Positions 28,468-31,400 are shown, numbered from the stretch's first letter. The stretch is 64,000 nt of DNA from a virus (IMGVR_UViG_3300032896_000001:1-64000); one strand, 5' to 3'. Notes: generated by a model not told the origin, from the sequence alone. Made by a program: numbers and translations.

Positions 28468-31400
28468 ATGCCCGACAACCCGCCGCCCGTCTACAAGTGG
28501 GCCGTGACGCTCGCCAACGCCACGCTCGGCGGGTCGGCCTTCGAGATCGAGGCCGCCTACCCCGTCATCGAGGACACCGGGCACATGGTCCTCAAGGACG
28601 CCGGCCACAAGCCCGTGTTCTCAGCCGAGCCGGGGCTCGGGTGCACCTTCGAACGGCGGGCGCGGGTCACCGACCCCGCAGCCGACAACCCGCCGCCCGG
28701 CACCGGCTACTGGCCGTGCGGGTGCCCGGTCGAGTCCCTCGAGGCGAAGCGCGACGGGACGCGGCTCTAGCCGTTCACGGCTCGCGAGGCGCGGGGAACT
28801 GCGTGTCGCACGTCAGGCACAGCTGGGCGACTACCTCGCCCGCAAGCGACTGCACCGGCTCTACCTCAAGGTGCCTGCACCGGGCCTTGACCCACCGGTC
28901 GGGAACGCCGATGCCGCGGACGACCTTCCATTCCCAGCGCGGGTCAAGCTCGACCGCGCCTGAGTCGGGGCGCGTGACGGCGGGCTTCGCCGCGACCGTC
29001 TTGGGCGGCGTCACCGCGACAGCGCGCGCTTCCGTCCTGCCCGGCCGTTCCGCCGTCCCTCCGGCCGCGAGGTACGCCCGGTTCGCGATCGCGTCCCACT
29101 GCCGCTGACGAAGCGCCTCGACCGCCTCCGCGAGCTCCTCGGCGCGCGTCTTCGGTGGCCCGGCGTCGCCCTCCGCCAGCATCGCCTCAGCCCGCAGGCG
29201 GCCGAGCTTCCGCCGCTCCCAGACGGCCAGCGCGGCCATGAGCGCGAGCAGGATGCCCGGCTTCCAGGAGGCGCCGGGCGCGGCCGCCAGGACGAGGCAG
29301 AAGGCGAAGGCCCCGCCGACCACGCCGCCCGTCGCGAACATCCGCAGCGCCCGGTGGCGCGCGATGCCCCGCCGCAGATCAACCTCTGCCTGCTCCTGCT
29401 CTTTGACGGCCACGTCCCCGATTGTCCCCGACGAAACCCGCGACAGGAGCGAAGTGGCCCTGACGAGGGTTTGCATTTTCTGCCTTGAGCCGCAGGCGGC
29501 ATGCGTGTGCCCTGACACCGAGGCGCTCGCCGTCGTCCCGTCCTGCTGCGACCTCCACGGGCGCAACTGCGAGCCTCCCGGCGACCTCTGCTGCGACGAG
29601 TGCACCGAGGAGCATCACGGGGCTTGGGTCGACGGCCGCCAGGTCCGCCGGTTCGGTCACCCGCCCGGGGAGACATGCTCGGCACCGGACGCGCCGCCGC
29701 CGCCCGGGATCAAGCCCGACTGGAGACAAGCGTGACCGCCGACGGCGACAGCCTCTACATGATCGACGACTGCGAGACGCCGCGCGCGGCCGCCGGACTC
29801 GAGGCGCTCCGCGCGCCGGCCGAGGGCGCGCAGTACCGGGGCGCGATCGTCATCGAGTGGCCGAGGGCCGCCCCGCACGGGGTCGGCGCGATCATCGGGC
29901 GCATGGTCTCGGTCTACGACGCGTTCACCGGCAGCGAGCCCGGGCCGAAGCCGATCTCGACGGTCTCGGAGATCGCCCTCCGCGTGTCGGTGGACGAGAT
30001 CGTGACTGCGGACCTGACCATGTTCGCCGACGAGGCGGGCAACCCGATCCTCGACGGGGAGCCCGTCCCGGACGGCGACGGCTTCCGGACTGGCGTGTTC
30101 CCGTTCCTCGTCAGCGAGATGAGGGTGAGGCACGCCGATGGCGTCCGGTGAGTACCAGCCGGCGGCACCTCTCGGCGACGGCGCGGCCTGCTTCTACCGG
30201 CGCCGGAACCGGGCGGGGGAGTGCGTCGGCCTGACGCCCCTGGACGGCAGGACGATCTTCCCGCTGCGCGACCGCCGGGGCAACGCGCCCGAAGGCGACG
30301 GGCCTGCTTACGTTCAGATGGTCAACGGCCTGCCGTGGAACTGGCTGACCCGCGATGATCTTGTCGTCCGGTACCCGGCCGGGCCGGAATGCGGGACGGT
30401 AGCGTGAGCGGCATGAGCGAGACGGCGGAAGGCCGCTAGTGTCCGTGAGCCTGTGGGATTTCCGCCACTGCGACCAGTGCCGACTCGGAGGATGCATCGT
30501 CATGTCCTGCCCGGGCGGAAACTGCCCTTGCGCCGGGAAGCACCCTGATGCGCACGGCGCCGAGGCCGCGACCCTAGAGCCGTTCCTCGCCTTCACCGAC
30601 GAGCACGGCGAGTTCCTCAGCCGCCTCTTCGGCCCGGCCGCCGATGAGCCCTCATCCGGGCCGCCCTACACCCACGTGCACCGGCTCCCGGAGACCGAGG
30701 AGGAGATGGCGGCCGCGCCGCTGCTTCCCTCGCACACGATCACCAGGGAGAGCGAGTGACGTCCGGCTGGGCCTGCCCGCAGTGCTCCAACGTGATGGCG
30801 CCGTTCATCGTCTCCTGTCCGTTCTGCACGAAGGCGGCGGGAAGCGCCGTTCCGGGCTTCAGGGCGGGCGACCGGGCATGGCCGAAGGCGGACGGCCCGA
30901 TGGCCCTCCAGCGTGCGCCACAGACCGTCCTGGCGTCCCGCCGCGACCCGGTGTTCGGGGACTGGCTGTGGCTTGACGGCGGCTCCGGCCACTTCGGGTC
31001 ATGGTCGGCCGGGCACTGGACGACGGACGAGCCGGGCGACGCGGAGAAAGCCGAGATCACGGAGCGCGCACGGCGGCGCGCCGAGGAGAACGACCGCATG
31101 ACCCCGAGGCGGTCGCACTCGCTCACGTTCGGCGGCGGCCTCGCGGGCATCAGCGAGCCGGGCGACCGATCCCCTGGCATGCCCCCGCCGGGATACGTCG
31201 GGCTGCCCCTTCCCTCCGCCCTGACGCCCGGAGCCGAGTACCGCCTCATGGTGGGCGGCAACTGGGCCGAGATACTCCCCGACTTGGAGTGCCGCATGGT
31301 CCGCGCCATCTGGGCGTGCGCCCCTGACGGCAAGCCGGTCGGCGTCGACCTTGAGTTCCGCCGCACCCCGCAGGCCGCCGGCGACAGTAAGGGCGATTGA

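What the first reader, a model, noticed from the sequence alone, without database searches (positions are those of the whole stretch)
30138..30407. Stand-alone 89-aa copy of an internal portal segment
Seen: matches portal residues encoded at about 25076-25263, with 13/18 identity in the first block and 18/19 in AYVQxVNGLPWNWLTRDDL. It has a shorter loop, diverged synonymous sites, its own ATG and stop, and overlaps the upstream gene. Established: portals are oligomeric and are recognised by Avs4 defence sensors. Inference: a decoy for portal-sensing immunity or a poison subunit against competing phages. With the TMP mimic, this suggests an undescribed strategy of encoding fragments of one's own virion proteins.
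Basis: partly seen in the sequence, partly recalled or inferred. Interest (0 to 1): 0.82.

Follow-up and report, generated by a model that had tools for sequence, protein, structure and literature searches.

The report
Stand-alone portal wing-domain mini-gene
A large Streptomyces-type phage carries, besides its normal portal gene, a small separate gene encoding one folded sub-domain of a portal protein; the gene is kept intact by selection and probably acts as a molecular mimic of the portal, but its function is untested.

Summary
ORF 30138-30407 (+, 89 aa) matches portal residues 160-229 at 39/70 identity (E 2e-22). It is the only extra portal-like piece in the 105-kb viral record.

It is not a decaying scrap:
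- Its codon-position GC pattern is coding.
- It is translationally coupled to the upstream gene.
- It is intact in four other metagenomic contigs.
- In the most diverged one (L007, 76% aa identity) both ends are conserved although the upstream neighbour differs.
- dN/dS is about 0.5 overall and 0.08 across the PAY..VNGLPWNWLTRDDLVV motif.
- It is better conserved than two flanking genes.

It is not a recent copy of the resident portal. The fragments form their own long-branch clade outside 54 related portals.

AlphaFold2 folds it confidently (pLDDT 86) as a six-stranded beta domain that matches the wing beta-subdomain of solved portals. In HK97 the equivalent region lines the scaffold-docking groove. 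Portal-invariant residues are replaced in a way that suggests re-packing for stand-alone life.

The gene is accessory. The closest relative, five complete related genomes and 73 portal-bearing loci all lack it.

My best reading is a soluble portal-wing mimic that competes for a wing-binding partner. Whether that partner is an immune sensor or the scaffold is unresolved. Expression and binding are untested.

The parts
30138..30407 (+). 89-aa stand-alone portal wing beta-subdomain gene (ATG to TGA)
   Evidence: BLASTP to the portal gives E 2e-22. GC at codon positions 1/2/3 is 0.72/0.58/0.86 and the frame plot agrees. It is intact in L007-L009. AlphaFold2 pLDDT is 86 with six strands. The model matches portal chains: Foldseek 8qje_A rmsd 2.1 A over 68 columns; VIA-align 8q7d_p Z 7.2, rmsd 2.6 A, 75 aligned.
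30303..30368 (+). Codons for the conserved motif PAYVQMVNGLPWNWLTRDDLVV (fragment residues 56-77)
   Evidence: Window against L007: dN 0.03, dS 0.38, ratio 0.08. 18/19 identical to the portal, with only third-position differences.
30127..30130 (+). Shine-Dalgarno-like GAGG, 7 nt upstream of the ATG
   Evidence: Read from the sequence. It is the same in L008 and L009. L007 has GGAGG 5 nt before its GTG start.
29732..30151 (+). Upstream gene X (139 aa, unknown function); its stop overlaps the fragment's start by 14 nt
   Evidence: Frame plot and the GTGA overlap with the preceding gene. A homologue is present in L010 without the fragment. No Pfam or PHROG hit.
29454..29735 (+). Small Cys-rich gene (93 aa), first gene of the small operon
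   Evidence: AGGAG lies 5 nt upstream of the GTG. 70% aa identity to the L007 homologue, dN/dS 0.30. In L007 it follows the portal stop directly and overlaps the fragment's start by GTGA.
25064..25273 (+). Homologous segment of the resident portal (aa 160-229), including a lineage-specific 7-aa loop insertion
   Evidence: The AlphaFold2 portal model shows strands 162-167, 173-179, 209-213, 216-221 and 226-228, lying between helix 144-158 and helix 243-265.
24587..27829 (+). Resident portal / 2H-phosphoesterase / MuF-like fusion gene (1080 aa)
   Evidence: PF04860, PF13563, phrog_2662 at E 6e-48. The model of residues 1-500 matches the phage 812, GTA and HK97 portals.

Best explanation
Shown or strongly supported:
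- ORF 30138-30407 is a genuine, selectively maintained accessory gene.
- It arose by an old partial duplication or capture of a portal gene and now encodes only the beta-subdomain of the portal wing.
- It lies in a translationally coupled operon of small genes in the variable region downstream of the portal-MuF gene. In L007 this operon follows the portal stop directly.
- The domain is predicted to fold on its own.
- It keeps the portal family's most conserved strand motif (VNGLPWNWLT.DDL). Residues that are invariant in portals were replaced: LLDYWG became LRDRRG or LVDACG, and Leu19 and Ala41 became Phe.

Inferred mechanism:
- The protein is a soluble mimic of the outer, scaffold-facing part of the portal wing.
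- It competes with full-length portal for a protein that docks there.
- My preferred partner is a host sensor of portal protein, which would make this counter-defence by titration.
- The second choice is the scaffold or procapsid machinery of co-infecting relatives.
For: Homology:
- E 2e-22 to the portal.

Coding and translation signals:
- Codon-position GC pattern and frame plot are coding.
- Window-versus-L007 differences by codon position are 9/9/17.
- Overlapping start and stop codons and Shine-Dalgarno sites are present in both contexts.

Conservation:
- The ORF is intact in L007, L008 and L009, and in clusters P0001, P0004 and P0002.
- N- and C-ends are conserved in L007 although gene X is absent there.
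- dN/dS is 0.5 (Fisher p 0.047) overall and 0.08 in the motif.
- Window-versus-L007 aa identity is 76% for the fragment, 70% for the Cys-rich gene and 57% for the portal C-terminal part.

Fold:
- AlphaFold2 pLDDT 86, pTM 0.74, six strands.
- The best structural matches are portal chains.
- The model aligns to HK97 portal residues 123-189. That stretch contains 6 of the 8 residues named as lining the scaffold groove (PMC10275583).
- Wing tryptophans matter for portal assembly and scaffold interaction in P22 and HSV-1 (PMC9320234).

Substitution pattern:
- Fragment-specific replacements at portal-invariant positions are shared with L007 and paralleled in P0099.

Accessory status:
- L010 (91% portal identity) has the Cys-rich gene and gene X but no fragment.
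- Five complete related genomes have only the full portal.

Background on portal sensing:
- Portals are sensed by several defence systems.
Against: - There is no evidence of expression or of any binding partner.
- The family is tiny: three 90%-identity clusters among 5.8 billion proteins.
- The dN/dS test rests on essentially one informative pair and is only marginally significant over the whole ORF.
- The 11-residue tail shows 4 non-synonymous and 0 synonymous changes.
- In HK97 the scaffold groove is formed by two neighbouring subunits, so a monomeric domain would offer only half of it.
- As I recall, Avs-type sensors envelop large surfaces of their targets, so a 70-residue sub-domain may bind poorly or might even trigger them.
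- Net charge is not conserved across the family: +3, 0 and -4.
Confidence: 0.5

Rival explanations
1. It is a non-functional relic: a scar of a partial portal duplication or of recombination in a mosaic region. The open frame persists by chance or by hitch-hiking with neighbouring genes.
For: - The region is highly mosaic, with indels on both sides among L007-L010.
- Nearly all relatives lack the gene.
- No family hit apart from a weak portal PHROG match at E 0.0066.
- dN/dS of the non-motif part is 0.56, and the tail shows only non-synonymous changes.
Against: - The frame is intact in five sequence variants, down to 76% identity, with the same stop and nearly the same start.
- dN of 0.18 is far below the synonymous divergence of the neighbouring genes, 0.6-0.8.
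- The motif has a ratio of 0.08.
- The piece coincides exactly with a structural sub-domain and is predicted to fold alone.
- The replacements at portal-invariant positions are directional and shared.
- A possible deep homologue, P0099, has the same boundaries.
Confidence: 0.13
2. It is a poison subunit. The fragment inserts into or caps growing portal rings, of competitors or of the phage itself, and blocks dodecamer formation.
For: - Portals are obligate oligomers.
- The fragment keeps the family-wide invariant motif, so it could address many related portals.
- A wing tryptophan is needed for stable P22 rings (PMC9320234).
Against: - It lacks stem, clip and crown. From general knowledge of portal structures, these provide much of the inter-subunit contact.
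- The phage's own portal carries the identical motif, so the phage would poison itself.
- The gene sits in an operon likely co-expressed with the portal (L007 arrangement).
Confidence: 0.1
3. It is a neofunctionalised small beta-barrel whose present role has nothing to do with portals, for example a nucleic-acid- or peptide-binding SH3/chromo-like module.
For: - A long stem branch (0.72 substitutions per site) separates the fragments from all portals.
- Weak structural resemblance to integrase C-terminal SH3-like and chromo-barrel domains, Z 2.7-3.1.
- The window protein is basic, pI 9.5.
Against: - The residues under strongest constraint are exactly the portal family's own invariant motif.
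- Charge is not conserved: pI 9.5, 6.3 and 4.4 in the three lineages.
- Portal chains are by far the best structural matches.
Confidence: 0.17
4. The conserved element is the DNA or RNA, not a protein: a recombination substrate for the portal gene, or a regulatory RNA.
For: A 57-bp stretch is 82-86% identical to the portal gene. The 3' part of the ORF and the junction to the next gene are very conserved at nucleotide level between the window and L007.
Against: - Differences from the portal within the motif are synonymous third-position changes.
- Window-versus-L007 differences by codon position are 9/9/17.
- Recombination between the two direct repeats would delete most of the portal gene, which I infer would be lethal.
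- The 3' nucleotide conservation is explained by the overlapping start region of the next gene.
Confidence: 0.03

Closest known systems
Phage portal proteins of the HK97-like family (Pfam PF04860, phrog_2662; solved examples: phage 812 8QJE, HK97 8CEZ/8FQL, GTA 6TE8)
   Same: Clear sequence homology to the wing segment of this family (E 2e-22 to the resident portal; 52-67% to 73 related portals). The predicted fold is the same as the wing beta-subdomain (Foldseek 8qje_A rmsd 2.1 A over 68 columns; VIA-align 8q7d_p Z 7.2).
   Different: It is only about 70 of 450 or more core residues. It has no wing helices, stem, clip, tunnel loop or crown, so it cannot form a DNA channel. Portal-invariant hydrophobic residues (YW, L, A, Y) are replaced. 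It gives no Pfam PF04860 hit.
Homologues or mimics of assembly proteins encoded by phage satellites (for example the capsid-homologue Ccm of PICIs and the scaffold-like CpmB of SaPIs; from my own knowledge)
   Same: A mobile element encodes a relative or mimic of a virion assembly protein, which acts by competing in assembly.
   Different: Those are satellite genes aimed at a helper phage, and they are whole proteins or scaffold mimics. Here a phage carries a single sub-domain of a portal beside its own complete portal, and no assembly effect has been shown.
Phage counter-defence by mimicry or sponging (for example the DNA mimic Ocr and the signal sponges Tad1/Tad2; from my own knowledge)
   Same: A small accessory protein with patchy distribution in a variable region that would work by titrating a host factor.
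   Different: I know of no case in which the mimic is a fragment of the phage's own sensed structural protein. Binding to any sensor is untested here.
Short internal triggers of abortive infection (the Gol peptide of the T4 major capsid protein with Lit protease; named as motif-type sensing)
   Same: It shows that a short internal segment of a structural protein can be the unit an immune protein recognises.
   Different: Gol lies within the full capsid gene and activates defence. It is not a separate gene, and it does not benefit the phage.

Membership tests
Phage portal protein (PF04860 / phrog_2662) | Significant match to the family profile | tested here: inconclusive
   Pfam gives no hit at E <= 0.01. 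phrog_2662 gives E 0.0066 over residues 14-77. Pairwise BLASTP to the resident portal gives E 2e-22. The ORF is homologous to a part of the family, not a full match.
Phage portal protein (PF04860 / phrog_2662) | Complete portal fold with wing, stem, clip and crown, able to form a channel | tested here: not met
   The 89-aa model has six strands only. It aligns to one stretch of portal chains, for example HK97 residues 123-189. The stem helix (portal 243-265) and everything after it are absent.
Pseudogene or decaying duplicate | Frame disruptions, shifting ends, dN/dS near 1 | tested here: not met
   The ORF is intact in the window, L007, L008 and L009. Both ends are conserved. dN/dS is 0.5 overall and 0.08 in the motif.
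Phage accessory ('moron'-like) gene | Presence/absence polymorphism among close relatives, within a variable region | tested here: met
   It is absent from L010 (91% portal identity) although both upstream genes are present there. It is also absent from five complete related genomes and from 44 loci that hold at least 3.5 kb downstream of the portal segment.
Phage accessory ('moron'-like) gene | Own promoter and terminator | tested here: inconclusive
   The consensus scan found no sigma-70-type promoter in 27700-32500 and only one terminator-like site, at 29456. Streptomyces promoters are poorly covered by this scan.
Anti-defence decoy for portal sensors (Avs4, Avs11, RAZR) | Binds the sensor and lowers its activation by portal | not testable with these tools
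The papers read show only that portals are sensed.
Dominant-negative portal subunit | Physical association with portal protomers | not tested
   No informative test of this feature was obtained (see Tried and rejected).

The most novel reading that the evidence does not exclude
The phage deliberately expresses isolated, re-packed sub-domains of its own sensed virion proteins as soluble decoys. Two such pieces exist in this genome: the portal wing beta-domain described here, and a copy of the tape-measure C-terminal 41 residues at 23469-23873. As monomers, the decoys would bind host pattern-recognition proteins (STAND/Avs-type or ring-sensing RAZR-type) without allowing the oligomerisation that activates them. 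This would be a new class of phage counter-defence by self-fragment mimicry.
Probability: 0.2. Interest if true: 0.85.

Novelty: new variant of a known kind. Interest (0 to 1): 0.55.

Why it matters
Portal proteins are essential, slowly evolving, and among the main molecular patterns that bacterial immune sensors recognise. A phage gene that encodes one portal sub-domain on its own, kept by selection and re-engineered to stand alone, is a ready-made natural probe for whatever binds that face of the portal. If the partner is an immune sensor, this would be the first counter-defence built from a fragment of the trigger itself. If the partner is the scaffold, it would be a phage-encoded competitive inhibitor or regulator of procapsid nucleation. 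Either outcome is directly testable with a 270-bp gene. If the gene does nothing, it remains a clear example of a structural sub-domain persisting as an ORFan after partial duplication.

Tried and rejected
Steps that gave nothing or were unavailable:
- Complex prediction of portal residues 76-470 with the fragment gave no verdict (score 0.00, below the mark). This is neither for nor against binding.
The contexts of P0001, P0004 and P0099 could therefore not be fetched directly. L007-L009 came from the metagenome scan instead.
- blastn of 27800-34000 against GenBank phages found no match.
- phmmer of the portal against PDB sequences found nothing useful.
- The search for related loci found no fragment homologue in viral contigs, either with the window protein or with P0099.
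- The first genome-contig scan found none. The second returned only full portals in Streptomyces prophages.
- The profile search for more stand-alone members found only the three known clusters.
- The ESM Atlas neighbours are clusters of short portal-annotated pieces and are not informative.
- BFVD holds no convincing small stand-alone protein of this fold. All good hits are portals or portal fragments.
- The literature search for truncated or dominant-negative portal fragments found nothing relevant.

Readings considered and rejected:
- A frameshifted second portal pseudogene around the ORF: the portal matches no other frame or flank.
- The minus-strand ORF 30111-30596 as the real gene: the frame plot and the substitution pattern favour the plus frame.
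- A recent copy of the resident portal: rejected by the tree and by the loop state.
- A product of the nearby HNH endonuclease genes: they lie 6 kb or more away and nothing links them to the ORF.

Full report
**Setting.** The window is the first 64 kb of a 105,095-bp virus record with 71% G+C. It encodes a large terminase (21104-22792) and a 1080-aa fusion of portal, 2H-phosphoesterase and a MuF-like part (24587-27829). It also encodes a tape-measure protein (51665-54985). Full portals 55-57% identical to the resident one lie in Streptomyces genomes. The host is therefore probably Streptomyces or a close relative.

**The observation.**
- The product of ORF 30138-30407 aligns to portal residues 160-229 with 39/70 identities, one 7-residue gap, and E 2e-22.
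- At DNA level, 30190-30361 matches 25072-25263 at 68% identity.
- Within AYVQxVNGLPWNWLTRDDL, 18 of 19 residues agree, and the nucleotide differences are third-position changes.
- tblastn of the portal against the whole record finds no further piece in any frame. This is therefore not a frameshifted second portal gene.

**Gene structure.**
- A codon-position GC plot shows the classical high-GC coding pattern in the plus frame of the ORF: GC1/2/3 of 0.72/0.58/0.86.
- The same plot and comparison with relatives redefine the neighbours:
  - a minus-strand gene ends near 29390;
  - a 93-aa Cys-rich gene runs 29454-29735, with AGGAG 5 nt upstream of its start;
  - gene X runs 29732-30151 and starts at a GTGA overlap;
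  - the fragment gene starts within the last codons of gene X (14-nt overlap), with GAGG 7 nt upstream.
- Three more small plus-strand genes follow, to 31720. None has a Pfam or PHROG hit.

**Relatives of the mini-gene.**
- The word-indexed search found two 90%-identity clusters of stand-alone proteins. One holds the window protein and two variants (P0001 and P0004, 97-99%). The other holds P0002 (76%).
- The metagenome scan recovered three contigs.
- L008 and L009 are about 95% relatives of the window, with mosaic differences around the gene.
- L007, the contig of P0002, is much more distant. Against the window, its portal C-terminal part is 57% identical in protein and its Cys-rich gene 70%.
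- In L007 the portal stop is followed at once by the Cys-rich gene. That gene's TGA overlaps a GTG preceded by GGAGG, and this GTG opens the fragment ORF. Gene X is absent.
- The L007 protein is therefore about 84 aa. It begins within two residues of the window protein's start and ends at the same ..PECG.VA stop. So the endpoints are conserved in a different genomic context.

**Selection.** The comparison is window against L007.
- The fragment has dS 0.36, dN 0.18, ratio 0.5 (Fisher p 0.047).
- The 22-codon motif has ratio 0.08.
- The N-terminal part has ratio 0.56.
- The 11-codon tail has 4 non-synonymous and no synonymous changes.
- Differences by codon position are 9/9/17.
- At 76%, the fragment is better conserved in protein sequence than both flanking genes. 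Its dN is far below their dS of 0.6-0.8.
- This is not neutral decay. However, the test rests on one deep pair.

**Origin.**
- In a tree of the 65-column core, the fragments form one clade (100/99 support) on a stem branch of 0.72 substitutions per site. That clade lies outside all 54 portals.
- The resident portal groups with L010 (100/96).
- The fragment lacks the 7-aa loop insertion that only the resident portal and L010 share.
- It is as similar to foreign portals (52-67%) as to its own (54-56%).
- It is therefore an old partial duplication or a capture from another portal lineage. Fast protein evolution followed, and then constraint set in.

**Distribution.**
- L010, the closest relative (portal 91% identical over 500 aa), has homologues of the Cys-rich gene and gene X but nothing after gene X that resembles the fragment.
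- No locus among 73 with related portals has a second hit. Of these, 44 hold at least 3.5 kb and 34 at least 6 kb downstream.
- Five complete related genomes of 97-132 kb contain only the full portal.
- The gene is accessory and rare.

**Structure.**
- With a 31-row alignment, AlphaFold2 gives a moderate model of portal residues 1-500 (pLDDT 61). It matches the portals of phage 812, the gene transfer agent and HK97.
- Residues 160-229 form five strands between a wing helix (144-158) and the following long helix (243-265).
- The fragment alone, with a 36-row alignment, folds with pLDDT 86 and pTM 0.74 into six strands. Only the last seven residues are disordered.
- Its best structural matches are the same region of portal chains. 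Foldseek gives 8qje_A at rmsd 2.1 A over 68 columns. VIA-align gives 8q7d_p at Z 7.2, rmsd 2.6 A, 75 aligned.
- BFVD returns only portals.
- The model aligns to HK97 portal residues 123-189 (Z 5.7, rmsd 3.1 A, 64 aligned).
[quoted passage not shown] The groove is lined by K156, K160, K161 and K346 of one subunit and D94, D135, D141 and D169 of the other (PMC10275583). Six of those eight residues fall inside the equivalent stretch.
- Wing tryptophans are needed for portal ring stability and incorporation in P22, and for scaffold binding in HSV-1 (PMC9320234). The fragment keeps both tryptophans of its WNW strand.
- These links are by structural equivalence to distant relatives. They are inference, not demonstration.

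**Re-packing.**
- At positions at least 90% invariant in 31 portals, both fragment lineages share the same kinds of change: Leu19 to Phe, Ala41 to Phe, Tyr61 to Met and Tyr77 to Val. The Tyr-Trp pair of LLDYWG is replaced by Arg-Arg or Ala-Cys.
- I read this as filling a core left open by loss of the rest of the portal, and making a formerly buried face polar.

**A possible deep member.**
- The exhaustive representative search returned mostly portals of 500-1400 aa. It also returned P0099, an 86-aa protein from a 958-bp Logan contig.
- P0099 aligns end to end with the fragment (27/76 identical, no gaps, 58.5 bits). Its alignment to the portal is weaker (32.7 bits).
- It shows parallel changes: Tyr at positions 19 and 41, Ser-Asn in place of Tyr-Trp.
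- Its context could not be fetched, and its long branch makes its placement unsafe.

**Function.** Three things are supported:
- it is a real accessory gene;
- it encodes an autonomous portal wing sub-domain;
- it is under constraint on the portal's own invariant motif.

What it does is inferred. The most economical mechanism is competitive mimicry of the wing's outer, scaffold-facing surface. Two partners are plausible.
- A host sensor of portal protein. Portals trigger Avs4, Avs11 and the ring-sensing RAZR. A monomeric piece could bind without supporting activation.
- The scaffold or procapsid machinery, which would disturb assembly of co-infecting relatives.

I lean slightly to the sensor, for three reasons: the patchy distribution, the position among small unknown genes, and likely co-expression with the portal.

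The ring-poison idea is weaker. The piece lacks stem, clip and crown, and the phage's own portal carries the same motif.

**The broader 'strategy'.**
- The all-against-all comparison of the record's ORFs finds one other fragment-type match. Residues 25-65 of ORF 23469-23873 match the last 41 residues of the tape-measure protein (23/41 identical, E 3e-14).
- That ORF lies in a 1.5-kb stretch between terminase and portal that L010 lacks.
- The copy is real. A shared purpose with the portal fragment is speculation.

**Verdict.** The mini-gene is real and unusual, and I found no described counterpart. Its function remains open.

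Noticed in passing
window 23469-23873 (+) and 51665-54985 (+): Residues 25-65 of a 134-aa ORF between terminase and portal match the last 41 residues of the tape-measure protein (23/41 identical, E 3e-14). A weaker second match covers TMP 987-1020. The ORF lies in a 1.5-kb stretch that is missing from the closest relative, L010. No homologue was found in the 77 fetched loci.
   Followed up: partly
window 43387-44037: A perfect 327-bp tandem duplication (43387-43713 = 43711-44037, 100% identical) lies inside the minus-strand ORF 43308-44201. 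It is either a real in-frame repeat or an assembly artefact.
   Followed up: no
window 475-1013 and 32909-33445; 5046-5217 and 33648-33810: There are two dispersed direct repeats. One is a 540-bp stretch at 92% identity that encodes a 70-aa Cys-rich protein twice (486-698 and 32918-33130, minus strand, 91% aa). The other is a pair of about 82-aa minus-strand ORFs at 57% aa identity (5053-5298 and 33655-33903).
   Followed up: no
window 24587-27829: The portal gene is a 1080-aa fusion. It comprises a portal fold (about 40-470), a 2H / 2'-5' RNA-ligase-like phosphoesterase (PF13563, residues 655-754) and a C-terminal MuF-like part with a Cys-rich end.
   Followed up: partly
L010:6598-9669 versus window 21104-22792: The large terminase ORF of the closest relative is 1023 aa, against 562 aa here. 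An in-frame insertion of about 1.4 kb sits at the position equivalent to window 21630, which is compatible with an intein.
   Followed up: no
window 36114-37415 (-) and 42123-43250 (+): Two HNH endonuclease genes share a domain (37% over 106 aa). The first also carries a DUF559/Vsr-like nuclease domain. Both lie among the head genes.
   Followed up: no
window 30382-30759: In L007 and L008 the gene after the fragment starts at ATG (MSET...) and runs on. In the window and L009 that frame stops after 8 codons (MSETAEGR), and a GTG at 30439 opens a different, Cys-rich N-terminus that joins the same C-terminal part. This is a mosaic indel at a gene start.
   Followed up: partly
window 29454-29735: A 93-aa Cys-rich protein gene (CxxC...CxC...CC...CC..C pattern) is conserved directly downstream of the portal gene in L007, L008, L009 and L010. 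It has dN/dS 0.30 and no family hit.
   Followed up: partly
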